IMG/VR virus record: IMGVR_UViG_3300045988_183539
Reading direction: 5' to 3' (one strand)
Length of the DNA stretch: 64,000 bases
Origin: a virus
The first letter of the stretch is position 1; each line of letters begins with the position of its first letter. Positions 11,444 through 59,674 of the stretch are shown here, piece by piece. Made by a program: the position numbers and the translations under genes. The notes under the pieces are model-generated. The model ran no database searches, was not told the origin of the DNA, and saw only the letters and a list, made by a program, of their open reading frames with translations.

Positions 11444-11526
11444 CAACGCTTTTTTACACTTAACTACATTATTATTATAAAACTGTTTAATGGTTTTATA
11501 TTTTAATGAATAAAGGAGTAAAATAT

Positions 11527-13353
11527 ATGAACAAAAATGAGTATGTATCATATTTTTTAGAGGACATTGAAGAACTTTTGGTAGATAACGCTAAAAGCTT
11601 TTATAATATTAGTGCAGCTAAGACATATGATGATGACAAAAGTCCAATATTATTAGTAGGTTATCCTAATTCTGCAATGAGAGCATATGAAATCCCATAT
11701 ATAAAAAGAGATATTAAAAATGCTAATGATTATAGAGATATTTTAACAATTTATAGAGATAAAATAAGAGATTTAAAAACAAATATTATTCTTGATATAG
11801 AAAATTATGAAAATACTCTTGATAATATTAATAATTTTAGGAATACTCCAACAAATGTAGAAAATACAGAAATAGCAGAGGAAATTCCTAGAACAAGATT
11901 ACATTCAGATGAATATTATGAAGAGTACGATACAGATTATTATTCTGAATTTATTGATACAGTAAAAGATTGGATTAGAGATTATGAAGTAGAACATAAT
12001 TGTCATATTGATGATGGTGATTATGGAGCATTGTATAATGATTACAATAATAATGATGATAGCTTTTTAGAAACTATGCTTAGTAATCTTGATAAATTTA
12101 ATATAACTTATAATACTGTTTCAGAAGATAGGCAGGAAGAATTTGATAATGCTGTTCAGGACTTAACAAGTACAGAGGAACAGGAGAGTGAAAATCCTTT
12201 AGATACTGATGAAAGAATAGTTCTTAATCATACAGAAGATTATTATGAAGACTTTGACCCTTATGATTTTGAAGAATTTAAGGATGTTGTAAATGATTAT
12301 ATTGAAGATTACAATAAAACAGTTAGTGAAGACAAAAAAGTTCAGAGAGAATCTATTAGTGAATTTATATTAGAAGACCTTTATGAAAATGATTATTTAG
12401 ATGAGCCATTAAGCTTTTATCATTCTTTTTTAGAAGTTATGGAAGATAATATTGGAAAAATTGATTTTGAAGCAATAGAAAGACATAATTTAATTCCAGA
12501 TGAAAATGAATATATACCTCATCATACAAGAGATTATTATGAAGATTATGATACAGATTATTTAGATGAATTCATTGAAACAGCTAAAGAATGGATTGAA
12601 GATTATGAGCATCTAAATAGTGTGACTATAATAATAGATGATGAGGAATTTGAAGACTTAAATGCTATTTATCAGGATAATGATTATAGTTTTAATGCAA
12701 CAATGCTTGATAATATGGGTAAAGTATTCTATGTTATTAATCATCCAGAAGAATATTATAATAGATTAGATGGACTTATTAGCAATAAAGAACATTTTGA
12801 AAAAAATGCTAAGGAATGGATTAATGATAATTTTAAATACTTAGTTATTTTGTCTAAATCTGATATAGATAATATAGATTATAGTGAGATATATAATAAT
12901 TATTGTAATAATGGTATATCATTTGTTGATACAATGCTTAATAGTATGATTAATTATGATTATTTGATAGAAGACCCAAGAGAAGGTATGGTCTTTACTC
13001 AACCTATTAGCCATATTGTAACACAGCAAAATACTATAAATGAAACTGTAAGCACAAATAGAAGAACTCCACAAGAGCTTAGAGAACTTTATAATCAGGC
13101 AAAAGATTTTGAAAATGTAAGAAATAATCTTGAAAAATTCTTACTAACAGATGAAGATAAAACTAATAATAATATTTATGAAAATTCTGACGGGTTTGGT
13201 TATAGAATTATTTTTGATGATAATACTAAATTAAAAGTACCTAAGTCTATGATTACTAAATGGATAGATGATTATGGTATTGATTATATTGAAGAAAACT
13301 TGTTTAATAAGTCATTTGAATGTCAAGATAATGACGAAATATCTTTAGATTAA
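11527..13353 (+). CDS. highly acidic protein with three internal repeats (possible DNA-mimic/anti-restriction-like)
   Basis: AAAGGAG RBS 7 nt before ATG 11527 (the track ORF starts at 11506). Repeats of YYE-[ED]-[YF]D-x-DY...EFI-x-T-x-K-[DE]WI-x-DYE. Very high Asp/Glu/Tyr content. Confidence 0.55.
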   Translation: MNKNEYVSYFLEDIEELLVDNAKSFYNISAAKTYDDDKSPILLVGYPNSAMRAYEIPYIKRDIKNANDYRDILTIYRDKIRDLKTNIILDIENYENTLDNINNFRNTPTNVENTEIAEEIPRTRLHSDEYYEEYDTDYYSEFIDTVKDWIRDYEVEHNCHIDDGDYGALYNDYNNNDDSFLETMLSNLDKFNITYNTVSEDRQEEFDNAVQDLTSTEEQESENPLDTDERIVLNHTEDYYEDFDPYDFEEFKDVVNDYIEDYNKTVSEDKKVQRESISEFILEDLYENDYLDEPLSFYHSFLEVMEDNIGKIDFEAIERHNLIPDENEYIPHHTRDYYEDYDTDYLDEFIETAKEWIEDYEHLNSVTIIIDDEEFEDLNAIYQDNDYSFNATMLDNMGKVFYVINHPEEYYNRLDGLISNKEHFEKNAKEWINDNFKYLVILSKSDIDNIDYSEIYNNYCNNGISFVDTMLNSMINYDYLIEDPREGMVFTQPISHIVTQQNTINETVSTNRRTPQELRELYNQAKDFENVRNNLEKFLLTDEDKTNNNIYENSDGFGYRIIFDDNTKLKVPKSMITKWIDDYGIDYIEENLFNKSFECQDNDEISLD

Positions 13354-13435
13354 AAAATAATAATATAAAGTCCTTTAAAGTAATAATAATTGCATTATTT
13401 TAAAGGGCTTATATTTATATATAGTACAATAATAA

Positions 13436-13495
13436 ATCGAACATCTGTTGGGTGTCGAAATTGACTAAACTAGGAAAGAAATTTTTAGGTATTTA
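13436..13495 (+). repeat. copy A of the conserved ~55-nt noncoding element (ATCGAAC...GGTGYCGAAA-N-TGACTAAACTAG-rAAAr-TTTTTAGG)
   Basis: Near-identity to 29661-29725 and 58285-58341 seen directly in the sequence. Confidence 0.7.
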
Positions 13496-13529: not shown

Positions 13530-14300
13530 ATGTATTGGGAAAATATAGAAGAACAAGTATGGAATAATGCTAGTTTTGTAAATAGTAAAGAAATACAAGA
13601 GATTAGAAGTAAACAATTTAAAAATCCTGTTATTTATGTTGATATGGATGGTACATTGTTTCAATGGAATAGATTAAAAAGTAAAGAATACCCAGATGGT
13701 GTTACTTTAGAAATGGTTTATTCACCTGGTTATTTTAGAAATTTAAAACCTAATTTAGGTATTTTAGAATTAGTAAATGCTTTACACGATAAAGGATATG
13801 ATATAAAGATAGCATCTAAATCTAGTTATACAGCTATAAAAGAAAAATTTGATAGCTTAATGGAATATTTACCTTTTTTAAACAAAAATGATATTTATTT
13901 TATTCCTTTAAATGCAAATAAGTCAGATTTTCTTCCAAATATAAAATCTAATGATATTTTAATAGATGACTATAATCCTAATTTAGATGAATTTAAAGGA
14001 AGTGTTATAAAATGTGTTACAGATATTAATACAATAAATCCTAAATACCCTTGGATTGAAAATAATGCTCCAGTTTATAAAAATATAGATAAAATAACTT
14101 GGACTTTAATAAGAGAATGGAAGTTTTCACAAAATTCAGAAAATCCTTTAAACTTTACAGATTTAAAATACATTTTTGATAAAAGTGTTATGTCTTTTGA
14201 AGATTTTTATAATATATGTAATGGTTTTAATATTAATTTAGATGAGTTTGCTTTTTTAAAAACAGAAAATGAAAAAGATGAAGAAGAAATAGAAATATAA
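13530..14300 (+). CDS. HAD-superfamily 5'(3')-deoxyribonucleotidase-like protein
   Basis: N-terminal VIYVDMDGTLFQW (DxDGT HAD motif I in the NT5C-like context); 256 aa. Confidence 0.55.
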   Translation: MYWENIEEQVWNNASFVNSKEIQEIRSKQFKNPVIYVDMDGTLFQWNRLKSKEYPDGVTLEMVYSPGYFRNLKPNLGILELVNALHDKGYDIKIASKSSYTAIKEKFDSLMEYLPFLNKNDIYFIPLNANKSDFLPNIKSNDILIDDYNPNLDEFKGSVIKCVTDINTINPKYPWIENNAPVYKNIDKITWTLIREWKFSQNSENPLNFTDLKYIFDKSVMSFEDFYNICNGFNINLDEFAFLKTENEKDEEEIEI

Positions 14301-26017: not shown

Positions 26018-27286
26018 ATGGAAAAAATAAAATATTCAGCTAGTGAAAAAAAGAATAGACATTTGTTATTTGAAACTAATAAAAATTTATTTATTACAGG
26101 AGCAGGAGGTACAGGAAAATCTACTTTTCTAAATGAATTTATAGAAAAGAACCCTAATACAATAGTAACAGCTCCAACAGGAATAGCGGCTGTAAATATA
26201 GGAGGAGTAACAACTTTTAATGCTTTTAGTATACCAATACCTTGTTTTGGAGCTACAACAAATAAACTGACTGAAGCAAAATTAAAGAAGATAATTATGG
26301 TTGATAATGTAATTATTGATGAAATAAGTATGTGCAGAGTAGATGCTTTTGTTTATATCACAAAGGTAATTAAAAAAGCTGAAAAGATAAAAGGTAAGAA
26401 GATAAGAATTATTGTTAGTGGGGATTTCTCACAGCTTCCTCCTGTAATTACAGATGAAGATGCTAAAATGTTAAAAAAATTTGGTTTTCATAAGTCTGGG
26501 TTGCCTTTTACTTGTAAAGAGTGGGAAAATTGTCATTTTACTACTATAGAGCTTACAGAAGTTAAAAGACAGGATAATCTTGAATTTATAGAAAACTTAA
26601 ATAAAGCCAGATTAGCAGATAAAAAATGTATAACATATTTTAATCAGTTTGTAACAGATGAAATTCCAGATGATTGTATTCATATATGTGGAACTAACGC
26701 AGAAAGTTCTAAACTTAATAAAGAATATTTGGACTCATTAGAGGGTATGCCATATGCGTATCAGGCAGTAAAACAAGGAAGAACTACAGGAGCATATGTA
26801 GATGATATTATTATTCTTAAAGATGGAGCAAATGTATATTTTACAGTCAATGATATATACGAGCATAAATATGTTAATGGAACATTTGGAAAAATACATA
26901 AATGTTTTAATGACCATATAGAAGTAGAAGTTGATGAAGAAATAATAGATGTTTACCCACACAGATATTCGGTTTATAATTATAAAATTATAAATGGAGT
27001 ATTAAAGAAAGAAGAAATTGGTTCAGTTTTACAAATGCCTTTAAAATTAGCTAAAGCAATTACTGTGCATAAATCCCAAGGCAAAACTTTTAATAAAGAA
27101 GTGTTTACACCTAAAATATTCGCAGCAGGACAGGCTTATGTTGCATTAAGCAGAGTAAGAAATCCTGAAGGTTTATTTTTAACAGAACCTTTACTTCCAG
27201 AACAATTAATGTCAGACAGAACAGTACTTAAATTTTATAAAAATAATTATAAATTTGAAAGTAATCGTAAAAAAACAGAAAAATAA
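26018..27286 (+). CDS. Pif1/RecD-family (AAA_30 + UvrD_C_2) DNA helicase
   Basis: ITGAGGTGKST Walker A, APTGIAAVNIGG, IIDEISM Walker B, TVHKSQGKTF, AAGQAYVALSRVRNPEGLF C-terminal motif. Confidence 0.75.
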   Translation: MEKIKYSASEKKNRHLLFETNKNLFITGAGGTGKSTFLNEFIEKNPNTIVTAPTGIAAVNIGGVTTFNAFSIPIPCFGATTNKLTEAKLKKIIMVDNVIIDEISMCRVDAFVYITKVIKKAEKIKGKKIRIIVSGDFSQLPPVITDEDAKMLKKFGFHKSGLPFTCKEWENCHFTTIELTEVKRQDNLEFIENLNKARLADKKCITYFNQFVTDEIPDDCIHICGTNAESSKLNKEYLDSLEGMPYAYQAVKQGRTTGAYVDDIIILKDGANVYFTVNDIYEHKYVNGTFGKIHKCFNDHIEVEVDEEIIDVYPHRYSVYNYKIINGVLKKEEIGSVLQMPLKLAKAITVHKSQGKTFNKEVFTPKIFAAGQAYVALSRVRNPEGLFLTEPLLPEQLMSDRTVLKFYKNNYKFESNRKKTEK

Positions 27287-27526: not shown

Positions 27527-28558
27527 TTACTCTAATTCATAATTACAATCATCATTATGAGTAATATTTATATCTATAATATTGTTATTACAATTTTTTT
27601 TAGCTGTTTTTTGGTCTTGTAACAATTTTTTTGCTTTATATAAAAACGTAGGATTATTTTTAATTTGAGCTTTATTCATATTGTTAATTATATCATTAAT
27701 TTCATTCATAGATAGTATAGTAATATCATATTTTTTACTAAAGCTATTGTTAGGTATAAAATTAGGATTGTATGTATTATATTCTTGTGTTTCTAATATT
27801 TCCTGTTTCGTTTCTTTATTAAGATATTTTGATACTTCTTTTTCGTTAAGGGATTTTCCCTGATATAATGCTAATATACATATATCATACATAATAGTAG
27901 CTTCTAAGTCATTAGCTGGCTTTATATGGTCATATATATTAAGATAACAAGTATCTATTAAAGTAAATATTTCTTTGTCAGATAAGGATATATTATATAA
28001 TTCTCGAAAGTTTTGTAATTTAATTTGAACTATGTCATCATATTTTTCTGTTATTTTTAAAACATTTTCATAGGCATAGTTAAAAGCTTCACGTTCTAAT
28101 GAACATAAAACATAAAAACATAAAGCAATTTCTTTACTCTTTATATATAGATTGTTATAATCATTTATATATAAATATGCTTTTTTAGACTGTATATAAA
28201 ATACATCATTAAATTGTATTATTTTGTTAAGTTTAAAAAACGAATTAGTTTCTATTAATTTATTTTGATGACTGTGATATAATTCGTGATATAAGGTGTT
28301 ATATAATACATAACAATTGTCATCTCTATTAGATGTTAAAAGGTCTGCATTAATTTTTATAATCTTATCATCATAAGAAAAAAATCCATTTATATCTGGA
28401 GAATTAAAGTTTTTAATAATAAGTTTAGAACAGTTATTTGGAATATTTTTCTTTATTTTATCAAAAAGGGAAAAAGTTATTTTTTCTTTACGATTAATAG
28501 ATAATATTTTCCAATTTTTAGAAGTGAAATAATCTTCAAGCTTACGTTTAAAAAACAT
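27527..28558 (-). CDS. hypothetical protein with HExxH motif (possible zinc metalloprotease-like)
   Basis: 343 aa; YHELYHSHQN contains HELYH. Confidence 0.45.
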   Translation of the reverse strand: MFFKRKLEDYFTSKNWKILSINRKEKITFSLFDKIKKNIPNNCSKLIIKNFNSPDINGFFSYDDKIIKINADLLTSNRDDNCYVLYNTLYHELYHSHQNKLIETNSFFKLNKIIQFNDVFYIQSKKAYLYINDYNNLYIKSKEIALCFYVLCSLEREAFNYAYENVLKITEKYDDIVQIKLQNFRELYNISLSDKEIFTLIDTCYLNIYDHIKPANDLEATIMYDICILALYQGKSLNEKEVSKYLNKETKQEILETQEYNTYNPNFIPNNSFSKKYDITILSMNEINDIINNMNKAQIKNNPTFLYKAKKLLQDQKTAKKNCNNNIIDINITHNDDCNYELE

Positions 28559-28570
28559 AATAGTTCTCCT

Positions 28571-28912
28571 TTATACATATAAATAAAAAAACGAATGTAA
28601 ATATTTTTCTTTATCTTTGTAATTATTTTTACAATAATCATTAAAATAAGGCAAACACATTATAAAATCGTGAATTTGGTTAAAATTATAATCTGAATAC
28701 ATTATATCCCTAATAGATAATCCTTTCACCTTAATATCACTAATATTTTTATTATTTAGCCATTCATAAAAATTAGGAAGGCATTTATCTGGTATATATT
28801 CAGTTCTATTTTTTATAAGCCTTATGGCTTCATCTTCATCATAATCATATCCATCATCATAGGATTGTAATTTTAATATCATTCTTTCTTTTAAATCTTT
28901 AGGTATGGTCAT
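28571..28912 (-). CDS. hypothetical 113-aa protein
   Basis: ORF track. Confidence 0.45.
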   Translation of the reverse strand: MTIPKDLKERMILKLQSYDDGYDYDEDEAIRLIKNRTEYIPDKCLPNFYEWLNNKNISDIKVKGLSIRDIMYSDYNFNQIHDFIMCLPYFNDYCKNNYKDKEKYLHSFFYLYV

Positions 28913-29013: not shown

Positions 29014-29580
29014 TTACTTATTATTGATTTCCTTTTCTTTATTAAAAAATGCTAACCCTATACAAATACTGTCAGCAATATCGTCACTAACATCTATATC
29101 GTATATTTGTTTTACTAATTCGATAGCTCTATTTTTTAATTCTTTTCTTTTTAATTTTACTTTATTTTCTGAATTAGGTATTCCTACAGCTTTTCTCCAA
29201 ACAGTAGGAGAGTAGAAATATATCAAACATCTCTTATGTTCTATTGAATAACTAAGAACTAAGCCTTGTATATGACATAACTTTTTATAAGCATATCCAT
29301 CTTTTCCCATATAAGTATCTTCAATAACTATTACTTTAGGTTTATATTTTTTTAGATAAATATTAATTCCTTTTATCATTTCAATTATTCGATAATCCAT
29401 ATTTTTCTTTTTTATTTCATTTTCCTCTTGTTTATTCATATTTTTATTTGTTTCATAAGGATTATCTGGTTTAATATAAGTGTAATCTATAAGTTCTTTT
29501 GTATTATAATCAAAAACAGCAATACCAGTATTTGTTGTACTTCCATCTATGCTGATTAAATATTGCTTTATTTTATTCAT
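29014..29580 (-). CDS. RuvC-family Holliday junction resolvase-like protein
   Basis: N-terminal ISIDGSTTNTGIAVFD (RNase H-like first Asp motif), C-terminal DIADSICIGLAF. Confidence 0.6.
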   Translation of the reverse strand: MNKIKQYLISIDGSTTNTGIAVFDYNTKELIDYTYIKPDNPYETNKNMNKQEENEIKKKNMDYRIIEMIKGINIYLKKYKPKVIVIEDTYMGKDGYAYKKLCHIQGLVLSYSIEHKRCLIYFYSPTVWRKAVGIPNSENKVKLKRKELKNRAIELVKQIYDIDVSDDIADSICIGLAFFNKEKEINNK

Positions 29581-29660
29581 TTGTTTTTATTCCTTTTTTA
29601 ATAATATATATTATCTTTTTTATTTTTAATTTAATGAAAATCAAAAGTAATTTTATATAA

Positions 29661-29725
29661 ATCGAACGGTTGTTCCGGTGCCGAAAATGACTAAACTAGA
29701 TAAAAAGTTTTTAGGGTTTATTTAG
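29661..29725 (+). repeat. copy B of the conserved ~55-nt element
   Basis: ATCGAACggttgttccGGTGCCGAAAaTGACTAAACTAGaTAAAAAGTTTTTAGGG; overlaps the stop of the - strand gene 29711-30001. Confidence 0.7.
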
Positions 29726-30001
29726 AAATAATTCTATAGTATTAATAGCACTACCATTTATAGATATAATTTCTAATTCTTCTAATTCTTTTTTTATATC
29801 AGTAGACATTCTTTTACTAAAAAAATCTTTTGTTCTAAAATCAATAGGATTGTTTAAATATTGCTCTATTTCAATAATACCTAACCTTTTATTGGTTTCT
29901 ATTTCATATAAAACAATATGTGTTGGAGCTATTCTTGAATATGATGAACCATATTTTATTATTAAATTTTCTAAAAATACTATATAATCTTTTAATTTCA
30001 T
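29711..30001 (-). CDS. hypothetical 96-aa protein
   Basis: ORF track. Confidence 0.45.
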   Translation of the reverse strand: MKLKDYIVFLENLIIKYGSSYSRIAPTHIVLYEIETNKRLGIIEIEQYLNNPIDFRTKDFFSKRMSTDIKKELEELEIISINGSAINTIELFLNKP

Positions 30002-31219: not shown

Positions 31220-32788
31220 ATGAGTATTGGAATATTTATAGCTGTAGTAGTTGTAGCTTTATTATTAATGAGTTATATAAAAGCACCAACAGATAAGGCT
31301 TTTATTGTATCAGGCTTAAGGAAGAAGCCTAAGTATGTAATAGGAAGGTCAGCACTTCGTATTCCATTTTTACAGAGAGTAGATAAGCTTGATTTAAAAA
31401 TGATTAGTGTTGATGTAAAAACTAAAGAGTCAGTTCCTACAAATGAATATATTAATGTAAATATTGATTCAGCAGTTAAAATTAAGGTTGGTTTATCACC
31501 AGATATGTTAGAAAAGGCAGCTAATAACTTCTTAAATAAAAATGATTTATATATTAGAGACCAGGTTGTTGATGTACTTGAAGGTAATGTTCGTGAAATT
31601 ATTGGGCAGATGAAGCTTGAAGAAATTGTTCAGGATAGAAAGTTATTTGCTGAAAAGGTACAGGAAAACGCTGCTCCAGATATGGAAAAGATGGGTCTTG
31701 AAATAGTAAGTTTTAATGTACAGAATGTTACTGATGAAGGCAATGTTATTGAAAACTTAGGTATTGATAGAGTAGTAAGTATTTCTAAGTCAGCACAGAT
31801 TTCAAGAGCAGAAAGTGAAAGAGATATTGCTGTTGCTAAAGCTAATGCTGAAAAACAGGCTAATGATGCAAGAATTGAAGCAGAAACAGCTATTGCAGAA
31901 AGAAATAACGAACTTGAAATTAAAAAGCAGGAGTTAAAGAAGGCTGCTGATATTAGAAAAGCTGAAGCAGATGCCGCTTATGAAATTCAGGAACAGGAAC
32001 AACGAAAGACTATTGAAATCACAACTGCAAATGCTAATATAGCAAAGCAGGAAAAGGAGATTGAACTTAGAGAAAAGGAAATTGCTGTTAAGGAAAAGAC
32101 ACTTGATGCTGAAATCCGTAAACAGGCAGAAGCAGAAAAGTATGCCGCACAGCAGAAGGCAGATGCAGACCTTTATTTAAGACAGAAGGAAGCAGAAGCA
32201 AAGCAGTTTGAAATTGTTAAACAAGCTGAGGCTAAGAAATCACAGGCAGAAGCAGATAGATTTGCTAAGGAACAGGAAGCAGAAGCTATTAAGGCACAGG
32301 GATTAGCAGAAGCAGAGAGCATTAAGGCTAAAGGTGTTGCTGATGCTGAAAGTATTAAGGCAAAGGGTATGGCAGAAGCAGAAGCTATGGAAAAGAAGGC
32401 AACTGCCTATGAGAAGTATGGTAAGGCTGCTATGACTGATATGATTATTAAGATACTTCCAGAAATGGCAGGACAGATTGCTAAACCTCTTGAAGCCATT
32501 GATAAGGTTACTATTATTGATGGTGGTAATGGTGAAACAGGGGTAGGTTCATTTAGTGGTAATGTTCCTTCAGTACTTGCAAAGACTATTGAATCTGTTA
32601 AGGAAACAACAGGATTTGACCTTACAGAGGTTATGAAAGCTAATACATATGATGCTAAAACAACTAAGAATGTTAATTTTACAGGACTTCCTAATGAAGT
32701 TAATGTAGATGCTTCTAATGTTTCTGATATAGAAGATGTGTTTGAAAATACTGATTTTGATAAGGCTATGAAAAAGCTTTCTGATTAA
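31220..32788 (+). CDS. flotillin-like SPFH/band-7 protein
   Basis: N-terminal TM helix, SPFH-like region, long Ala/Glu/Lys coiled-coil with EA repeats typical of FloT/YqiK. Confidence 0.7.
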   Translation: MSIGIFIAVVVVALLLMSYIKAPTDKAFIVSGLRKKPKYVIGRSALRIPFLQRVDKLDLKMISVDVKTKESVPTNEYINVNIDSAVKIKVGLSPDMLEKAANNFLNKNDLYIRDQVVDVLEGNVREIIGQMKLEEIVQDRKLFAEKVQENAAPDMEKMGLEIVSFNVQNVTDEGNVIENLGIDRVVSISKSAQISRAESERDIAVAKANAEKQANDARIEAETAIAERNNELEIKKQELKKAADIRKAEADAAYEIQEQEQRKTIEITTANANIAKQEKEIELREKEIAVKEKTLDAEIRKQAEAEKYAAQQKADADLYLRQKEAEAKQFEIVKQAEAKKSQAEADRFAKEQEAEAIKAQGLAEAESIKAKGVADAESIKAKGMAEAEAMEKKATAYEKYGKAAMTDMIIKILPEMAGQIAKPLEAIDKVTIIDGGNGETGVGSFSGNVPSVLAKTIESVKETTGFDLTEVMKANTYDAKTTKNVNFTGLPNEVNVDASNVSDIEDVFENTDFDKAMKKLSD

Positions 32789-34213: not shown

Positions 34214-34426
34214 ATGGAAGAAAATGTAACAGAAGAAATGATAGACCTGTTAAAAAAAGTAGCTGATTTATGTTGCAAGGCAAGTGAAGAAGTTTATGAT
34301 GATGATAAAGAAAATGGAACAGCAAATATATTAAATTTATGTGATAAGTTACAGGAAGCTATAGATGAATATGTTTTAGATTATGACTGTAAAAAAATAT
34401 TAGAAAATAATGAATTAGAGTATTAA
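34214..34426 (+). CDS. small acidic Cys-containing protein, paralog of 40936-41160
   Basis: EEMIDLLKKVADLCCKASEEVYDDDKENGTANILNLCDKLQEAIDEY aligns with QEMIDILKNISDLCYKASNEVYEDDDKEKGTAKILILCDNLNEVIDDY. Confidence 0.5.
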   Translation: MEENVTEEMIDLLKKVADLCCKASEEVYDDDKENGTANILNLCDKLQEAIDEYVLDYDCKKILENNELEY

Positions 34427-36489: not shown

Positions 36490-36608
36490 CATTTTTTTAT
36501 TATATCTTCTTAAGTTCTTATTTTTAGGATTTAAGAAGATATTTTTTTATATTCTTTTATTGTATTCTATCCCATAAATAGGGTATAATTAATTATAAGA
36601 GATTGAAT

Positions 36609-36698
36609 ATGAATAAATATATATTAATGCATAAAAATATTGAAGTAGCTTTAATGGATTTAGATGAAAATGATAGAAATGCAAAACCAATAAAATAG
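36609..36698 (+). pseudogene. truncated duplicate of the hipA-like N-terminus
   Basis: MNKYILMHKNIEVALMDLDENDRNAKPIK* versus the N-terminus of 39528 (MKDYILMHKNIEVALMKLDENDANSKPSK). Confidence 0.55.
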
Positions 36699-39510: not shown

Positions 39511-39527
39511 TTGATGAAAGGAAGAAT

Positions 39528-40781
39528 ATGAAAGATTATATATTAATGCATAAAAATATTGAAGTGGCATTAATGAAGTTAGATGAAAATGATGCTAATT
39601 CAAAGCCATCAAAGATATATTTGAATGAAAAAGAACAAGACCATATTCCTATCGGAGCAAGAATGAATAATATTAAATTCATTAACTGGTGGCAGGATAG
39701 GGCAATCCCTAAAACAAGGCAGGGAGCAAGAACAGCTTTACAAAGATTAGGATATAGTTCAGTTACAAATGCTATGATAAATAATCTGGCTTTAAGTCTT
39801 AATGATTGTTATTGGATAAAACCCAGATATTCAGAATTAACTTGGGAAGAAGTTAATTTATTTTCAAATAATTTTGTTGATGCTTTTGGAGAACTCACCT
39901 TTAACCAAACAGAGGATTTAGATTTAAGAAAATATACTAAGTTTTTAAGTGCTGTTTCACAAGGAGAAGTTCAAAAGAAATGGTGTATAGATAAGGATAA
40001 TCATAGGTATCTTGTAAAAGGTAATTATGGCAATTCTTATCAACAAAGCATTAATGAAGTATTTGCCAGCAATTTTCATAAAGACCAAAATTTTAATAAT
40101 TACACACCTTATTATTTTTGCAATATTGAACTTACAAATAACAGAAAAGGATTAGGATGTTTTTCTTATAACTTTTGTAATGAAAATATTGAAAGTATTT
40201 CAGCTTGGGAATTATTACAAACTAGAAAGATTAAACAAAATGAAAGCTTATACTATCCTTTCAAAGATATATGCTTATCGCTAGGAATCAAAGAAGATGA
40301 TTTTGATAATTTTATTGATTATGAGATTTGTAGTGATTTTTTATTTACAAATTTAGATAGACATATGAATAATATAAGTATTTTAAGAAATCCAGACACA
40401 TTAGAAATATTAGGGTTCGCTCCTATATATGATACTGGAAATAGTATGTTTTATAATGTTTCTACTAATGAATTAAATAATGTTAAGTTAGGACAAGATA
40501 AAACACATTCATTTATAACATCAAAAGAAAATAGATTGCTAAAGTATGTTAGAAATAAAGAGATTATAAACATAGATAAAATTAATACTGATTTCTCAAT
40601 ATACGAAAAGGATATTTATGATGATTTAAGGATTTCTTTATTAAAAGAAAAATTTGAAAGAAAAATAGATTTGTTGCTGTCTTTTCAAAAAGGCAATAAT
40701 ATCTGGGAAGATAATTATAATAAAATATATATACAGAATTATAATAATTCAATAGAAACTGATGAAATAGACTTAGATTAA
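39528..40781 (+). CDS. HipA-family Ser/Thr kinase-like toxin
   Basis: C-terminal catalytic motif LDRHMNN (D-x-H-x-x-N) and FAPIYDTGNS (DFG-like) as in the HipA fold; 417 aa. Confidence 0.65.
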   Translation: MKDYILMHKNIEVALMKLDENDANSKPSKIYLNEKEQDHIPIGARMNNIKFINWWQDRAIPKTRQGARTALQRLGYSSVTNAMINNLALSLNDCYWIKPRYSELTWEEVNLFSNNFVDAFGELTFNQTEDLDLRKYTKFLSAVSQGEVQKKWCIDKDNHRYLVKGNYGNSYQQSINEVFASNFHKDQNFNNYTPYYFCNIELTNNRKGLGCFSYNFCNENIESISAWELLQTRKIKQNESLYYPFKDICLSLGIKEDDFDNFIDYEICSDFLFTNLDRHMNNISILRNPDTLEILGFAPIYDTGNSMFYNVSTNELNNVKLGQDKTHSFITSKENRLLKYVRNKEIINIDKINTDFSIYEKDIYDDLRISLLKEKFERKIDLLLSFQKGNNIWEDNYNKIYIQNYNNSIETDEIDLD

Positions 40782-40935: not shown

Positions 40936-41160
40936 ATGTTTAAAAAAAATGAAAATTTAAGAGAAAATAATAATAATATGACACAAGAAATGATAGATAT
41001 ATTAAAAAATATATCAGATTTATGTTATAAGGCAAGTAATGAAGTCTATGAGGATGATGATAAAGAAAAAGGAACTGCAAAGATATTAATTTTATGTGAT
41101 AATCTAAATGAAGTTATTGATGATTATATAGATAATTATGAAGATATAGAATTAGATTAA
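40936..41160 (+). CDS. small acidic Cys-containing protein, paralog of 34214-34426
   Basis: See 34214. Confidence 0.5.
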   Translation: MFKKNENLRENNNNMTQEMIDILKNISDLCYKASNEVYEDDDKEKGTAKILILCDNLNEVIDDYIDNYEDIELD

Positions 41161-57001: not shown

Positions 57002-59674
57002 ATGAATAGTAATAATATTGTTGAATGTATGTTTTTTGGTCAGAGATTTAATGAAAAGCCTTCTAAAATGGAAACAGGATATATACAGAAGAATATAACG
57101 ATTGCAAACATAACAATAGAAAATTTAGCAGAAGCTCTTGTTAATGGTGCTTCTTTTAGACCAAGCATATTAATAGGGGGACGTACAAAAGATGATTGGA
57201 AAAGACAACAGCTTTTTGGTTTAGATTTTGATAGTGGTGTTTCTATTGATGCATCATACAATAAAGCTATATCATTAGGTCTTATTCCTGTATTTATGTA
57301 TACTACATTTAGTCATACTCCAGAACATCACAAATATAGAATGATTTTTTGTACAGATAAAGTCATTACAGATATGGCTTTAAGAGACAAATTCCAAGCT
57401 ACTCTTATGGGTTTAATGGGAGATATAGATAAAGTATGTTTTAACAGAGATAGATTATTTTTTGGAGGAAAAGGTAAAGAAATACTTTTTCCTAATTTCA
57501 ATGCAAAACTTAATGCAGAAGAAATTATAGATAAGTATTGGAAAGATGATTTTGAAGTATATATAAAAGGACAAACTAAGTCAAAAAAAAGAAAATTAAA
57601 GAAAACAACAGAACCTAAGCAAAATAATTCATTTACTGTTATAAATTATGAACCAGATATTGATGAAATACCTTATGCAAGTTATCCAGTAAGATGTGTT
57701 ACCTTAGGTAATTTACGTTGTCTAAAAAAATATTATGATAGTATTATTTGGGCAGAAGGAATGCACAGAGAAAGATTTATTTTTATTTACTACAATTGTG
57801 TTAAATTACTTTATGGTTCAGATAGAGCTTATAAAGAATGTATAGAATTAAATAATAGTATGGAAGAACCATTAACAACATATGAATTAAAATCTGCAAT
57901 AATACATACAGATGAACATATGGAAAATAAAGATTGGTATAGAAAAGCATTACACGGAGATGGATGTTTTATTTTTAGACCTGAAACAATTATTTCAGAT
58001 AAATGGTTAAATATAGATGAAGAAACAGCTATAAAATGTGGATTTTTTGATAATAAAATAAGAAAAGAAAAAATAGAAGAAAATAAAAAGTTAGATACTC
58101 TTAGAGATAAAGAAGTAGCTAGATTATATTTATCTGGATTAGGTTATAAAAAAATAGTTAATAACCTTTCTAAGGAATATAAATGTAGTGCATCTACAGT
58201 TAAAAGAACTATAGAGAGATTAGGAATAAAAGAAAGAAATATTTCTTTAGAAGATATAGAGTTTAATGAAAATAAGAAGTATGCCAAACATTCGTTTGGG
58301 GTGCCGAAAGTGACTAAACTAGAAAAAGAAGTTTTTAAGGTAAAGTCTAAAAAAGAAATATCAGATAATAAAGAAGATAATATAGTATTTTTAAATGAAG
58401 ACTGTAAGAGATTATATGAAACGTCTAAAAATGCAGGGTCAGAAAGTAATATTAATGAACAGGAGATAGCTATTGAAACAATATTAAATAATCCTACAGT
58501 TAATTACTGTTTAAAAGGTAAAGCTGGTACAGGTAAAAGTTATTGTATTAATAGTTTATTACAGAGATTAACAGAAGAAGAAAGAAAAAAGACATTAGTA
58601 GTAGCTCCAACAGGAGTAGCTGCTTCTAATATTACATATACAACAGCTCATACAATACATTCAATATTTGAGTTATATACATTCGTACAAAGACAAGATG
58701 AACATATTAGGATACCTAAGATTTTATTAAATGTAGATAGAATTATCATTGATGAAATAGGTATGGTAAGAAAAGATGTATTTAATCAGTTAGTACGAAT
58801 TATTAATAATGCTCAAAAATTAACAGGTAATAAAATACAGTTAATATTAGCAGGAGATTTTGGACAGATTTCCCCTGTTGTTACAAAAGAAGATAAAACT
58901 GTAATGGATATTTATTACAAGGGAAGTGAAGATAAATATTTCTGTTTTGATAGTCCTTTATGGGATAGTTTAGATATTCATACAATAGTATTAAGAAATA
59001 ATCATAGACATAATAATGATGATTGCGATGAATTACAGAAAGAATTTATTAATATATGTGATGAGATTAAATTTGGAGCTATATCAGGATTAAAATGGTT
59101 AAATAATAACTTAAAACATACTGCTATAGAAGATGGAATATATCTTTGTGCTAATAATAAACAGGTTGATGTTTATAATAAAATGTATACAGATAAATTC
59201 ACAGATAAAAAGACATATAATGCTGTATGTTTTGGAATTACATCTGAAAGAAAATTACCTGTAAAGCTTAGTTTAGAATTAGCAGTAGGTATGAAAATAA
59301 TGACTCTTGTTAATACAAAGAAATACAAGAATGGTAGTTTAGGAGTAATAACAAAGCTTTATAAGGATAAGATTAAAGTAAAGTTAGATAATACAGGAAA
59401 AGAGATTACTGTAAAATATACTGAATTTAAGATAAATGAAGAAACTGATGAAGTATTATATCAGTTACCAATAGCTATAGCATATGCTATTACTGTAAAT
59501 AAAGCACAAGGATTAACATTAGAGAAAGTAAATATTGTTCCTGGCTTTTTTGCGGCAGGACAATTATATACAGCTATAACAAGAATAAAGAATGTACATA
59601 ATATTAGTATTATTGGTGAATTAAAAGAAACTGATTTAGTTGTAGATACAAGAGCATTAAGTTTTATTGCTTAA
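57002..59674 (+). CDS. replication protein: N-terminal AEP-type Prim-Pol + PriCT-like region + HTH, fused to a C-terminal Pif1/RecD-like helicase
   Basis: N-terminal LFGLDFDSG (DxD) and TTFSHTPEHHKY (SxH) primase-polymerase motifs; HTH ASTVKRTIERLG. Helicase motifs LKGKAGTGKSY, VVAPTGVAASNI, IIDEIGMV, ITVNKAQGLT, AAGQLYTAITRIKN. GAGAGGAG RBS. Confidence 0.7.
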   Translation: MNSNNIVECMFFGQRFNEKPSKMETGYIQKNITIANITIENLAEALVNGASFRPSILIGGRTKDDWKRQQLFGLDFDSGVSIDASYNKAISLGLIPVFMYTTFSHTPEHHKYRMIFCTDKVITDMALRDKFQATLMGLMGDIDKVCFNRDRLFFGGKGKEILFPNFNAKLNAEEIIDKYWKDDFEVYIKGQTKSKKRKLKKTTEPKQNNSFTVINYEPDIDEIPYASYPVRCVTLGNLRCLKKYYDSIIWAEGMHRERFIFIYYNCVKLLYGSDRAYKECIELNNSMEEPLTTYELKSAIIHTDEHMENKDWYRKALHGDGCFIFRPETIISDKWLNIDEETAIKCGFFDNKIRKEKIEENKKLDTLRDKEVARLYLSGLGYKKIVNNLSKEYKCSASTVKRTIERLGIKERNISLEDIEFNENKKYAKHSFGVPKVTKLEKEVFKVKSKKEISDNKEDNIVFLNEDCKRLYETSKNAGSESNINEQEIAIETILNNPTVNYCLKGKAGTGKSYCINSLLQRLTEEERKKTLVVAPTGVAASNITYTTAHTIHSIFELYTFVQRQDEHIRIPKILLNVDRIIIDEIGMVRKDVFNQLVRIINNAQKLTGNKIQLILAGDFGQISPVVTKEDKTVMDIYYKGSEDKYFCFDSPLWDSLDIHTIVLRNNHRHNNDDCDELQKEFINICDEIKFGAISGLKWLNNNLKHTAIEDGIYLCANNKQVDVYNKMYTDKFTDKKTYNAVCFGITSERKLPVKLSLELAVGMKIMTLVNTKKYKNGSLGVITKLYKDKIKVKLDNTGKEITVKYTEFKINEETDEVLYQLPIAIAYAITVNKAQGLTLEKVNIVPGFFAAGQLYTAITRIKNVHNISIIGELKETDLVVDTRALSFIA
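58285..58341 (+). repeat. copy C of the conserved ~55-nt element, embedded in the primase-helicase CDS at the linker between HTH and helicase domains
   Basis: AAACATTCGTTTGGGGTGCCGAAAGTGACTAAACTAGAAAAAGAAGTTTTTAAGG; encodes ...KHSFGVPKVTKLEKEVFKV... Confidence 0.7.

What the first reader, a model, noticed from the sequence alone, without database searches (positions are those of the whole stretch)
13436..13495. A ~55-nt conserved noncoding element present three times (13436-13495, 29661-29725, 58285-58341)
Three same-strand copies share GGTG(C/T)CGAAA-N-TGACTAAACTAG-(A/G)AAA(G/A)A-...TTTTTAGG. Each is preceded by a short hairpin that keeps pairing through compensatory changes (aaca-tc-tgtt, cgg-ttgtt-ccg, aaac-attc-gttt). 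Copies A and B also share ATAAATCGAAC upstream. The identical core is 22-25 nt, the surrounding positions vary, and the upstream spacer length differs (11/12/13 nt). Conservation is therefore at the nucleotide level and not protein-coding, even though copy C lies inside a CDS. Copy A sits in the leader of the deoxyribonucleotidase gene. Copy B overlaps the 3' end of a - strand gene next to the RuvC-like resolvase. Copy C lies inside the primase-helicase gene. Candidate roles are a recombination or resolution site, a primase single-strand initiation or nick site, a small cis-regulatory RNA, or a regulator operator.
Basis: seen in the sequence. Interest (0 to 1): 0.85.

Follow-up and report, generated by a model that had tools for sequence, protein, structure and literature searches.

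The report
Dispersed regulatory box of giant plasmid
A roughly 65-base DNA signal found three times in this window is real and is conserved in many human-gut samples. It most likely marks the starts of a few co-regulated transcription units on a very large, AT-rich conjugative element, but its exact job is not proven.

Summary
The three copies are real. Core GGTGYCGAAANTGACTAAACTAG matches at 13451, 29677 and 58300, with 0 expected by chance. They belong to a family of at least 25 distinct copies in about 12 genomic contexts. All lie in 22-25% GC human-gut contigs of one replicon lineage, with contigs up to 0.6-0.8 Mb.

Anatomy: an optional RAAC-N4-GTTN palindrome that resembles a clostridial LexA box, then GGGTG, seven variable bases, an invariant TGACTAAACTAG, a hypervariable A/T tract of nearly fixed length, and TAG(G).

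The claimed compensatory hairpin is not supported. The inner AAC/GTT never varies and the next pair is mismatched in 6 of 16 copies. There is no Rfam match, no consensus RNA fold and no conserved peptide.

Most intergenic copies follow a promoter-like element. Inverted pairs sit back-to-back. One copy is kept in frame at the HTH/helicase linker of an AEP PrimPol–SF1B helicase, down to 56-62% protein identity.

An inversion signature exists between lineages, but 19 of 19 further contigs share one orientation, so active switching was not seen.

Best reading (about 0.42): a dispersed, asymmetric promoter-proximal operator/promoter box, comparable to mycobacteriophage stoperators. Rivals are an RNA leader, a PrimPol-helicase recognition site and a recombination site.

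The parts
13427..13491 (+). Copy A, whole module. It comprises a promoter-like ACAATAATAAAT, a palindrome, GGGTG, 7 nt, the 12-mer, an A/T tract and TAGGTA. It lies 74 nt upstream of the NT5C-like gene.
13439..13450 (.). Copy A palindrome GAAC-ATCT-GTTG (LexA/Cheo-box-like, imperfect).
   Evidence: C. difficile operators GAAC-N4-GTT(T/C) in PMC4234289
13462..13473 (+). Copy A invariant 12-mer TGACTAAACTAG.
29652..29717 (+). Copy B, whole module (TTTTATATAAAT, palindrome, GGTG, 12-mer, A/T tract, TAGGGT). It sits between two - strand genes.
29664..29675 (.). Copy B palindrome GAACGGTTGTTC, the only perfect GAAC-N4-GTTC in the window. It lies 84-95 nt upstream of the RuvC-like start codon on the - strand.
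   Evidence: ruvC is a predicted LexA target in C. difficile (PMC4234289)
29688..29699 (+). Copy B invariant 12-mer.
58284..58341 (+). Copy C, whole module. It comprises CCAAAC-ATTC-GTTTGG, GGGGTG, the 12-mer, an A/T tract and TAAGGT. It is read in frame as KHSFGVPKVTKLEKEVFKV inside the PrimPol-helicase gene.
58311..58322 (+). Copy C invariant 12-mer.
57002..59674 (+). 890-aa PrimPol-helicase. Domains: AEP PrimPol (about aa 1-190), a helical domain, a GerE-like HTH (about aa 355-415), a linker that holds copy C (aa 428-447), and a PIF1/RecD-type SF1B helicase (aa 481-861).
13530..14300 (+). NT5C-family 5'(3')-deoxyribonucleotidase gene downstream of copy A. No other promoter-like element with room for a leader lies between copy A and its Shine-Dalgarno sequence.
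29014..29580 (-). RuvC-like resolvase gene. Its upstream region contains copy B, read on the opposite strand.
29711..30001 (-). 96-aa ORF whose last two codons overlap the TTTTTAGGG tail of copy B. It has no Pfam hit. It shows 3% divergence and no indels between relatives, but substitutions are spread 3/3/3 over the codon positions.

Best explanation
The element, here called the M-box, is a dispersed, asymmetric, promoter-proximal regulatory box. It belongs to one very large, AT-rich conjugative-type replicon lineage from the human gut.

Proposed mechanism, with shown and inferred steps marked:
1. Shown: each copy lies at or just after a promoter-like element at the head of a transcription unit. 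Inverted pairs lie back-to-back between outward-facing promoter-like elements.
2. Inferred: a sequence-specific protein encoded by the replicon binds the bipartite site GGGTG-N7-TGACTAAACTAG on double-stranded DNA. In most copies host LexA, or a LexA-like repressor, binds the adjacent RAAC-N4-GTTN palindrome.
3. Inferred: binding controls transcription that starts just upstream, as an operator or roadblock at about +15 to +45. Alternatively or additionally it controls transcription from the box itself. The box holds a -35-like TTGACT, a 19-20-nt spacer of free sequence but constrained length, and a TAGGGT/TAAGGT -10-like hexamer.
4. Inferred: in this way about 8-10 scattered units are switched together, plausibly on DNA damage or on entry into a new host. 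The units include NT5C, a DNA methyltransferase, nucleases, helicases and the distal part of the PrimPol-helicase gene.

The copy inside the PrimPol-helicase gene would be the same box placed in a tolerant interdomain linker. There it could act as an internal or autoregulatory site.
For: Family and specificity
- Three copies in the window, 0 expected by chance.
- At least 25 distinct copies in about 12 contexts, found only in 22-25% GC gut contigs.
- The same replicon carries the window genes and the inverted pair (contig of 487,840 bp).

Bipartite site
- The 12-mer is identical in 27 of 28 unique copies.
- GGGTG is nearly invariant, with fixed 7-nt spacing whose sequence varies: YCGAAAN, CAAACAT, TCAACTT, TCAAAAA.

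Promoter association
- Five contexts have the replicon's standard promoter motif (ACAATATTCTTATAATA type) about 20 nt upstream of GGGT.
- Copies A, B, the L009 type and both members of the pairs have similar -10-like elements abutting the palindrome.
- The downstream start codon lies 74-147 nt away in 9 of the 13 listed contexts.
- The L008 pair sits between divergent genes, with each box pointing at its own gene.

Spacer behaviour
- The distance from TGACT to TAG(G) is 19-20 nt in most intergenic copies. This is my count from the sequences.
- The intervening A/T tract is the most variable stretch, even between orthologues.

Palindrome
- It matches the clostridial LexA operator form GAAC-N4-GTT(T/C). 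For example, AGAACATTTGTTTG here compares with AGAACAAATGTTTG at C. difficile recA.
- Copy B is a perfect GAAC-N4-GTTC upstream of a RuvC-like gene.

What it is not
- Not a coding feature in the intergenic copies (frame-shifting indels).
- Not a known RNA family.
- No consensus RNA fold.

Precedent
- Cluster A mycobacteriophages carry 20-30 asymmetric repressor sites oriented with transcription. Some of them lie within promoters (PMC6550527).
Against: - No candidate regulator gene was identified. Pfam scans of about 60 ORFs in the window and neighbouring loci found only a HipB-like HTH_3 and the weak GerE-like match (E 0.76) inside the PrimPol-helicase.
- Orientation relative to transcription is weakly tested, because nearly all genes are on the + strand. 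Of the informative cases, one agrees (the L008 left copy). Two do not obviously agree: copy B points against its two flanking - strand genes, and the left copy of the L002/L007 pair faces the 3' end of a convergent gene. That left copy is, however, followed by a conserved structured ~100-nt region.
- Three copies (L008a, L008b, L036) have no convincing -10 upstream.
- A 19-20-nt spacer and a G-rich -10 are poor for a sigma-70-type promoter. The standard scan found no promoter in the box.
- Half of the palindromes read AAAC rather than GAAC, and the palindrome-to-GGTG distance varies by 1-3 nt.
- There are no expression or binding data.
Confidence: 0.42

Rival explanations
1. RNA-level leader. 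The box works after transcription, as the 5' part of the RNA or in the non-template strand of the transcribing polymerase. One version is a nut/ops-like loading site for a processive antiterminator, which would let induced transcripts read through the many terminators of the long one-directional gene array. A second version is a translational operator or gene-start module: a Shine-Dalgarno-like GGGUG, 6 nt, then AUG/GUG/UUG. In copy C this module would yield a helicase-only isoform.
For: - The box lies about +15 to +45 downstream of promoter-like elements.
- It tolerates an in-frame coding position.
- Back-to-back pairs resemble divergent early operons that each begin with a nut site.
- GGGTG-N6-NTG has the geometry of real ribosome-binding sites of this replicon (AAGGGTG-7-ATG, AAGGTG-5-ATG, GAGGTG-8-ATG).
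- N is T, A or G in all 28 copies and never C.
- In L001 the helicase ORF has no start codon upstream of the box.
- A stand-alone PIF1 paralogue of 422 aa exists at 26018-27286.
Against: - There is no consensus RNA structure and no Rfam hit.
- The small ORFs that would start at NTG vary from 6 to more than 47 codons, and change frame between orthologues.
- In most contexts a further standard promoter lies between the box and the gene.
- No NusG-like or other antiterminator gene was seen.
- The absence of C at N is weak evidence, given G>C skew and likely conversion between copies.
Confidence: 0.22
2. The box is the recognition site of the PrimPol-helicase itself, bound through its HTH. It would then be an origin or priming site (ssi-like), or a DnaA-box-like site, embedded once in the protein's own gene and scattered on the lagging-strand template.
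For: - The protein is an AEP PrimPol fused to an SF1B helicase, with an HTH immediately before the residues encoded by copy C.
- The in-gene copy is kept at the same linker in homologues of 56-62% identity, using the rare codons TTG and CTA (L016, L045).
- It is absent from homologues at or below 43% identity (L046).
- The HTH recognition helix (STVKRTIERLG) is shared by the three box-carrying homologues and differs in the box-less homologues.
- All solo copies in the window lie on the G-rich + strand (GC skew +0.2 to +0.37), including copy B, which points against its flanking genes.
- Inverted pairs recall, from my own memory, the two opposed ssi sites of RSF1010 oriV.
Against: - With about 8-10 sites in a replicon of at least 0.5 Mb there are far too few for lagging-strand priming and too many for origins.
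- The hairpin is not conserved across copies.
- The promoter and LexA-box associations are not explained.
- The L002 pair lies between co-oriented genes, not at a strand switch.
- The HTH/box co-variation is confounded by phylogeny (3 versus 7 sequences).
Confidence: 0.15
3. The box is a site-specific recombination site. It would act as an inverton or shufflon repeat, or as a cassette attachment site, with strand exchange in or next to the invariant 12-mer. It would move promoters and gene cassettes around the replicon.
For: - Between the L002/L020 and L007 lineages, the 86-nt segment bounded by the two inverted 12-mers is inverted while both outer flanks stay collinear. Identity is 80% in reverse complement versus 65% forward, and 0 of 500 shuffles reach the observed value.
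- L034 and L040 share the upstream gene, the promoter and the box. Homology ends right after CTAGAAAA.
- A methyltransferase gene is bracketed by two direct copies that share about 55 nt.
- L049 and L051 have identical flanks but a patch-converted box interior.
Against: - All 19 further contigs of the window-type lineage that span the pair, each from a different sample, have the same orientation.
- No serine-recombinase motif was found in any held AT-rich locus, and no recombinase domain was found next to the pairs or in the window.
- Most orthologous comparisons are collinear across the box.
- The events seen could be rare homologous or template-switch recombination at any dispersed repeat.
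Confidence: 0.08
4. The box is a selfish miniature repeat (MITE-, Correia- or BOX-like) that spread through intergenic DNA and has no function of its own. Promoter-like parts would be incidental.
For: - It occurs in solo and inverted-pair forms.
- It sits in unusually long intergenic regions.
- Some contigs break exactly at the box (L061, L066, L074).
- Conversion occurs between copies.
Against: - The copy number is very low for the replicon size.
- The 12-mer is invariant while its flanks diverge.
- One copy is kept in frame in a gene across homologues of 56-62% identity.
- There is no transposase association. Target-site duplications were not examined.
Confidence: 0.05

Closest known systems
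Stoperators/operators of cluster A mycobacteriophages (L5, Bxb1). 20-30 asymmetric 13-bp repressor sites are spread over the genome (PMC6550527).
   Same: Both are asymmetric, high-information sites dispersed in short intergenic spaces. Both are predominantly in one orientation relative to transcription. Some sit within promoters and others inside transcription units. The sequence is lineage-specific.
   Different: - There are far fewer sites per length here: about 8-10 in at least 0.5 Mb, against 20-30 in about 50 kb.
- The site is longer and bipartite (GGGTG-N7-12-mer) and has an added A/T tract plus TAG(G).
- It is often joined to a LexA-like palindrome.
- No cognate repressor has been identified, and no binding has been shown.
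Phage P1 C1 repressor operators. These are asymmetric 17-bp sites scattered over the plasmid prophage that control ban, ssb, dmt, ref and other genes (from my own knowledge, not checked here).
   Same: A large plasmid-like replicon with dispersed asymmetric boxes in front of scattered DNA-metabolism genes. Some boxes occur as inverted pairs.
   Different: The sequence is unrelated and the host group is different. Box position relative to -35/-10 is not established here. No C1-like protein was found.
Gram-positive LexA (DinR) SOS box, or Cheo box: GAAC-N4-GTTC, and GAAC-N4-GTT(T/C) in clostridia (PMC4234289).
   Same: Only the upstream palindrome resembles this family. It has a fixed 4-nt spacer and conserved AAC/GTT. 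Copy B is a perfect GAAC-N4-GTTC in front of a RuvC-like gene. Several copies nearly equal the C. difficile recA and lexA operators.
   Different: About half of the copies read AAAC...GTTT or GTTG. Five copies lack the palindrome. The invariant part of the element (the 12-mer) is not part of any LexA box. LexA binding is untested.
nut sites of lambdoid phages and ops/JUMPstart elements recognised by RfaH-type NusG paralogues (from my own knowledge).
   Same: These are short invariant elements just downstream of the promoters of long operons. They are orientation-dependent, few per replicon, and can lie in transcribed or coding DNA. Divergent pairs occur at divergent early promoters.
   Different: There is no sequence similarity, no conserved hairpin and no antiterminator gene. 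In most contexts another promoter follows the box.
Invertible promoters (invertons) such as the C. difficile flagellar and cwpV switches, and shufflon sfx repeats (from my own knowledge).
   Same: Short inverted repeats flank a segment of about 86 nt that carries an outward promoter-like element. One inversion is seen between lineages.
   Different: No orientation polymorphism was seen in 19 samples. There is no adjacent recombinase. Most copies are solo and in direct orientation.

Membership tests
Any Rfam RNA family | Match to a curated covariance model at or near its gathering score | tested here: not met
   The window gave 0 hits at gathering thresholds. Permissive scans around copies A and C and around the L002 pair gave only far-sub-threshold chance hits.
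   RNAalifold predicts 0 pairs over 25 copies. Single-sequence folds are inconsistent: z = -1.2, +0.2 and -3.3 for A, B and C. In the palindrome the inner pairs never vary and the 4th pair is broken in 6 of 16 copies.
LexA / Cheo (SOS) box | A GAAC-N4-GTT(C/T) palindrome | tested here: inconclusive
   Copy B is perfect. A, the L011/L049 form of the L009-type site, L026, L027 and L008div_m have GAAC on the left. C and 7 others read AAAC. L016 reads GAAA...GTTC. Five copies have no palindrome. The reference operators come from PMC4234289.
LexA / Cheo (SOS) box | Binding by LexA and induction by DNA damage | not testable with these tools
   This needs EMSA or SPR with the host LexA, and expression data.
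Dispersed asymmetric operators (stoperator / P1 C1 type) | An asymmetric site present many times over the replicon, mostly intergenic | tested here: met
   At least 8 sites are assigned to the window-type replicon. Only the L009-type site, A, B, C and the L002 pair are shown by shared contigs. Co-residence of the L017 and L040 types is inferred from sample and coverage, not shown. All are intergenic except the in-gene copy.
Dispersed asymmetric operators (stoperator / P1 C1 type) | Orientation tied to the direction of transcription | tested here: inconclusive
   Most copies are co-oriented with the next gene, but nearly all genes share one strand. The informative cases split: the L008 left copy agrees, while copy B and the L002/L007 left copy do not clearly agree.
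Dispersed asymmetric operators (stoperator / P1 C1 type) | A cognate sequence-specific repressor encoded by the element | tested here: not met
   No candidate was found in about 60 ORFs scanned. Only a small part of the replicon was available, so the gene may lie elsewhere.
Sigma-70-type promoter | -35 TTGACA-like and -10 TATAAT-like hexamers separated by 16-18 nt | tested here: not met
   TTGACT is present, but the nearest TAnnnT-like hexamer (TAGGGT, TAGGTA, TAAGGT) is 19-20 nt away in most copies (my count). The consensus scan reports no promoter within the box.
Small ORF / leader peptide | A conserved peptide product | tested here: not met
   A Shine-Dalgarno-like GGGTG and an NTG start are present. 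However, the ORFs run from 6 to more than 47 codons, and orthologues differ by frame-shifting T-run indels.
Inverton / phase-variable invertible promoter | Both orientations present within populations | tested here: not met
   All 19 additional contigs from different samples share the L002 orientation. The inverted state is seen only in a diverged lineage.
Inverton / phase-variable invertible promoter | An invertase or recombinase gene nearby | tested here: not met
oriT / relaxase nic site (MOBF-like hairpin plus conserved 3' tail) | An HUH relaxase domain fused to the SF1B helicase | tested here: not met
   The N-terminal domain folds as an AEP PrimPol (6zp9_A, E = 6.5e-7). HUH Rep/relaxase folds appear only at E of about 1.
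Primase single-strand initiation site (RSF1010 ssiA/ssiB type) | A conserved hairpin recognised in single-stranded DNA | tested here: not met
   The hairpin is absent or different in 9 of 25 copies. A cognate-type primase is present. Priming itself cannot be tested here.

The most novel reading that the evidence does not exclude
The box is the specific DNA address of the PrimPol-helicase. The enzyme's HTH would read GGGTG-N7-TGACTAAACTAG. The enzyme would be loaded, or would prime, at a handful of fixed sites on a replicon of more than 0.5 Mb, including one site written in frame into its own gene. The same sites would double as breakpoints where cassettes and promoters are exchanged. This would be a site-specific priming and loading system for a giant plasmid, without a described counterpart in Firmicutes.
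Probability: 0.13. Interest if true: 0.8.

Novelty: new member of a known kind. Interest (0 to 1): 0.52.

Why it matters
The carrier is an uncharacterised, very large (contigs of 0.25-0.8 Mb), 24% GC conjugative-type replicon. One of its genes is indexed in 232 blocks of the public assembly collection, and the contigs retrieved came from many human-gut samples. Almost none of its genes have a known function.

A high-information box that marks a small set of transcription units gives a practical handle on it. The box defines a putative regulon of nucleotide and DNA-metabolism, methylation and helicase genes. It suggests a link to the SOS response. It provides a 12-mer probe for fishing out the binding protein, and a marker for recognising this replicon family in metagenomes.

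If the binder turns out to be the PrimPol-helicase, or if the box is a recombination site, the finding would bear on how giant plasmids replicate or shuffle cargo.

Tried and rejected
1. Coding by-product. Rejected for the intergenic copies, because frame-shifting indels occur between orthologues and the peptides are not conserved. Copy C is coding, but it keeps the rare codons TTG and CTA across homologues of 56-62% identity.
2. Known RNA family, tRNA-like element or ribozyme. No hits.
3. Conserved RNA hairpins or an attenuator. Not supported. RNAalifold is empty, and the 2:3 antiterminator pairing I looked for holds only in copy C-type sequences.
4. Antisense partner for the 12-mer in the window. 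None beyond chance.
5. Annotated relatives. There was no megablast hit in the phage or plasmid collections. Viral contigs gave only two unrelated chance hits. Representative genomes gave one MAG contig. About half of the 43 metagenome hits were chance matches in GC-richer contigs and were discarded.
6. Literature search for the 12-mer. It returned only primer tails.
7. Relaxase/oriT reading, prompted by a remembered resemblance to the R388 and F nic regions. Dropped after the fold search showed an AEP PrimPol and not an HUH domain.
8. Active inverton. Not supported.
9. An analogous in-gene repeat in a distant homologue's contig (L046). None found.
10. Sigma-54, sigma-D, Spo0A 0A-box (TGNCGAA) and MerR-type readings of parts of the box. 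The matching parts fall in the variable N7 or do not fit the required spacing. TGNCGAA is only mildly enriched (10 versus 4.5 expected). These remain leads only.
11. Terminus (Ter-like) or origin reading of the pairs. The L002 pair lies between co-oriented genes, so this has no support.
12. 'N is never C' as proof of a start codon. Down-weighted, because G>C skew and conversion between copies can explain it.
Full report
**1. The observation**

The three stretches were read directly. The pattern GGTGYCGAAANTGACTAAACTAG occurs exactly three times, at 13451, 29677 and 58300, all on the + strand. Allowing up to 3 mismatches adds no further copy, and none occurred in 100 dinucleotide-preserving shuffles. 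The repeat finder recovers the same three as a 39-nt family (D10). The alignment shows the shared tail (A-rich, then T-rich, then AGG) and the ATAAATCGAAC shared by A and B. The observation as such is confirmed.

**2. What the window is**

The window is 24% GC. Nearly all genes are on the + strand, and GC skew is strong and uniform at +0.2 to +0.37.

It encodes Gram-positive-type conjugation parts: PrgI, a VirB4/TraG-like ATPase, a T2SSE ATPase and a cell-wall amidase. Its cargo includes NT5C, RuvC, two PIF1-type helicases, HipA-like kinases, radical-SAM proteins, flotillin and Thg1.

There is no close match among annotated phages or plasmids.

Exact-protein look-ups show the same genes on many human-gut contigs of 0.2-0.8 Mb. 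The carrier is therefore a very large replicon and not a small plasmid.

**3. The family**

- A scan of species-representative genomes found one MAG contig, from an uncultured Clostridiaceae bacterium (L001).
- A metagenome scan with CGAAANTGACTAAACTAG gave 43 loci. About half are true relatives: 22-25% GC, with GGGTG upstream. The rest are chance hits in GC-richer contigs.
- A profile search in the true loci added diverged copies. Later loci added more.
- In all there are at least 25 distinct sequences in about 12 genomic contexts.
- A fourth copy lies about 8.4 kb upstream of the window start (L049/L009 type).
- No copy occurs in the 10 kb after the window end.
- An inverted pair lies elsewhere on the same replicon (contig of 487,840 bp).

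**4. Anatomy**

The invariant part is TGACTAAACTAG, identical in 27 of 28 unique copies. GGGTG lies exactly 7 nt upstream. Those 7 nt are usually YCGAAAN but can be CAAACAT, TCAACTT or TCAAAAA.

After CTAG comes an A/G-rich run and then a T run, ending in TAG(G). This tract is the most variable stretch, even between orthologues: L026 and L038 differ by one T, L002 and L059 by one T, and L049 and L051 differ throughout. By my count from those sequences its length is nevertheless held so that TGACT and TAG are 19-20 nt apart in most intergenic copies.

Upstream there are two forms.
- Class I (16 copies, including A, B and C) has the palindrome RAAC-N4-GTTN 1-3 nt before GGTG.
- Class II (L002-, L007, L017/L033, L034, L040) instead has the replicon's standard promoter motif about 20 nt upstream. 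That motif (T-run, TTCACT/TTTACA, then ACAATATTATTNTATAA) precedes many ordinary genes in the window.
- Most class I copies also have a -10-like element abutting the palindrome. In copy A it is a shortened version of the standard motif placed after a terminator-like hairpin.

**5. The hairpin claim**

All three copies carry the same palindrome: GAAC-ATCT-GTTG, GAAC-GGTT-GTTC and AAAC-ATTC-GTTT.

Across the 16 class I copies, AA(C/A)-N4-GTT is present in all (AAC in 15, AAA in L016), so it gives no covariation evidence. The next pair out is mismatched in 6 of 16. RNAalifold on 25 copies predicts no pairs. Single-sequence folds are significant only for copy C.

The palindrome has the form of the clostridial LexA operator. 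C. difficile recA, lexA, ruvC and uvrB carry GAAC-N4-GTT(T/C), for example GAGAACAAATGTTTGT (PMC4234289). Compare TAGAACATTTGTTTGG in L008. Copy B is the only perfect GAAC-N4-GTTC in the window, and it lies 84-95 nt upstream of the RuvC-like start on the other strand.

I therefore read the 'hairpin' as a degenerate palindromic protein-binding site that resembles an SOS box. LexA binding is untested, and half the copies read AAAC.

**6. Not coding, not a known RNA**

In the only open frame, the box reads (M/V/L)TKL(E/D/G/V)K. GGGTG-N6-NTG has the geometry of genuine ribosome-binding sites of this replicon.

However, the resulting small ORFs run from 6 to more than 47 codons, and orthologues differ by frame-shifting indels. 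No peptide is conserved.

N is T, A or G, never C. It is polymorphic between orthologues. With G>C skew and evident conversion between copies, this is weak evidence for a start codon.

Rfam gives nothing. No tRNA was found. No antisense partner exists in the window.

**7. The in-gene copy**

The 890-aa protein has these parts:
- an N-terminal domain that folds as an AEP PrimPol (model pLDDT 85.8; best PDB match cyanophage S-2L PrimPol, E = 6.5e-7);
- a helical domain;
- a weak GerE-like HTH;
- a PIF1/RecD-type helicase.

Copy C encodes residues 428-447, in the linker between the HTH and the helicase.

The whole module (palindrome, GGGTG, 12-mer, A/T tract, TAGGGT) is kept at the same place in a 56%-identical homologue (L016/L031). 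The core (GGGGTGCAAACATTGACTAAACTAGAAAAAG) is kept in a 62%-identical homologue (L045). Both use TTG and CTA, which I expect to be rare leucine codons at this base composition.

Homologues at or below 43% identity, in GC-richer contigs, lack the box and have no analogous repeat. In the MAG contig L001, homology to the window starts just before the HTH, and the first start codon of the ORF is inside the box. L054 has a 637-aa version.

**8. Contexts**

Genes downstream of the box include:
- NT5C;
- a Dcm-type methyltransferase with an intein-like insert;
- a thermonuclease-like protein;
- a T5orf172/MUG113 protein;
- a DUF488-YpsA protein;
- several proteins of unknown function.

The start codon is 74-147 nt downstream in 9 of the 13 listed contexts. 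In most of them a second standard promoter lies between the box and the gene. Copy A is the exception: the box region is the only place with room for a promoter and a leader.

Because almost all genes share one strand, co-orientation with the next gene is weak evidence. The informative cases are as follows.
- The L008 pair lies between divergent genes, with each box pointing at its own gene. This agrees.
- Copy B points against its flanking - strand genes. This disagrees.
- The left copies of the L002/L007 pairs face the 3' end of a convergent gene. They are, however, followed by a conserved ~100-nt region that folds well on the box strand (-28 kcal/mol, z = -3.1).

**9. Recombination signatures**

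Between the L002/L020 lineage and the L007 lineage, both outer flanks are collinear (84% and 72% identity). The 86-nt segment between the two inverted 12-mers matches at 80% in reverse complement against 65% forward, and 0 of 500 shuffles reach this value. The segment contains back-to-back promoter-like elements.

L034 and L040 share the upstream gene, the promoter and the box, and diverge right after CTAGAAAA. The methyltransferase gene in L008 is bracketed by two direct copies. L049 and L051 differ only inside the box.

I tested for active switching. All 19 further contigs that span the pair, each from a different sample, have the L002 orientation. No recombinase was found nearby. These events are therefore rare. 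They fit occasional recombination at a dispersed repeat, and they do not show a dedicated recombination system.

**10. Interpretation**

The features fit best with a DNA-level, promoter-proximal regulatory box:
- a bipartite invariant sequence with fixed spacing;
- a free-sequence but fixed-length tract before a TAnnnT-like hexamer;
- a promoter-like element just upstream;
- back-to-back pairs;
- an adjacent LexA-like palindrome;
- low copy number;
- lineage specificity.

The box would be either an operator or roadblock for the upstream promoter, a regulated promoter in itself (TTGACT, 19-20 nt, TAGGGT), or both. It would define a small regulon.

The closest described concept is the set of asymmetric operators and 'stoperators' of cluster A mycobacteriophages (PMC6550527). 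From my own knowledge, the dispersed C1 operators of phage P1 are also close.

I put this reading at about 0.42. The rivals are:
- RNA-level leader, either nut/ops-like or a translational start module giving a helicase-only isoform: 0.22;
- recognition site of the PrimPol-helicase: 0.15;
- recombination site: 0.08;
- selfish repeat: 0.05.

The remainder is for something not considered. No regulator gene, expression data or binding data are available, so every step beyond the anatomy is inference.

**11. Novelty and score**

The sequence family is undescribed. There is no Rfam hit, no annotated relative and no literature hit for the 12-mer. The most likely kind of element, a regulon box on a mobile replicon, is well known, so I rate it a new member of a known kind.

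Interest is moderate, for two reasons. The element is a clean, testable handle on a widespread but uncharacterised giant gut replicon. The link to an AEP PrimPol-helicase, with one site embedded in frame in that gene, leaves a more unusual reading open.

Noticed in passing
window 8745, 11448, 14363, 30113, 30852, 32902, 41706, 43985, 47329, 49680, 53248, 55808, 60863 (+ strand): A second, more abundant intergenic motif. A T-run is followed by TTCACT/TTTACA/TTGACA, about 17 nt containing ACA(A/T/C)TATTATT, and then TATAA/TGTATA. It often follows a GC-containing terminator hairpin and lies 20-35 nt before a Shine-Dalgarno sequence. It looks like the replicon's standard promoter.
   Followed up: partly
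L002 3160-3290 (- strand); L007 6960-7085 (+ strand): A conserved ~100-nt non-coding region lies just downstream of the 'orphan' member of the inverted M-box pair. It is closed by a 13-bp stem (AAGCUUGUAUUUU/AAAAUACAAGCUU). MFE is -28 kcal/mol with z = -3.1 on the box strand. It may be a small RNA gene. There is no Rfam match.
   Followed up: partly
(contig lengths); whole window: The carrier replicon is very large. Contigs with the same genes reach 245, 488, 639 and 821 kb. Its genes recur on contigs from many samples (one gene is indexed in 232 blocks of the collection), yet almost none have a Pfam domain. No housekeeping genes were seen in about 140 kb examined. It may be a giant plasmid or another extrachromosomal element of an AT-rich clostridial host.
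   Followed up: partly
L008 9290-11266: A Dcm-type DNA cytosine methyltransferase gene appears to be interrupted by an intein-like (Hint) segment (CLIGETKILT...VHNC). This is my reading of the translation; the protein was never scanned against Pfam. The gene is bracketed by two direct M-box copies.
   Followed up: no
window 27619-28910 vs L026: A 1.3-kb segment holding the 343-aa and 113-aa - strand ORFs next to the RuvC-like gene is absent from the otherwise 97%-identical relative L026. It is an indel polymorphism about 0.8 kb from copy B.
   Followed up: no
L001 1-360; L054 4830-7767: Natural variants of the PrimPol-helicase gene. In L001 the region upstream of the HTH is replaced by promoter-like DNA, and no start codon precedes the box. 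In L054 the gene is called as 637 aa behind a different 265-aa gene.
   Followed up: partly
window 34223-34399 vs 40975-41154; 36605-36694 vs 39524-39613; 11902-12608; 32122-32382: Paralogous gene pairs lie near the HipA-like/HTH genes, at 75-84% nucleotide identity. There are also internal tandem protein repeats in ORF 11506-13353 and in the flotillin-like ORF 31220-32788.
   Followed up: no
window 61908-62798; L053-L057: A cluster of RNA-repair or RNA-modification-type genes: a Thg1-like tRNA-His guanylyltransferase, a 2'-phosphotransferase (PTS_2-RNA), an ADP-ribosylglycohydrolase, a CCA-adding/poly(A) polymerase family enzyme and RadC. Together with multiple HipA-like kinases this suggests counter-defence or tRNA-repair cargo.
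   Followed up: no
L049 5926-6534 (about 3.5 kb upstream of window start): An ImmA/IrrE-type M78 peptidase gene. In ICEs and prophages this is the anti-repressor protease that couples induction to RecA. No adjacent HTH repressor was recognised.
   Followed up: no
L061, L066, L074 (contig ends), L072: Four of 20 contigs end inside or exactly 7 nt after the right-hand M-box of the pair. The likely cause is that the 36-nt stretch GGTGCCGAAAATGACTAAACTAGATAAAAAGTTTTT is identical to copy B of the window and breaks the assembly graph.
   Followed up: partly
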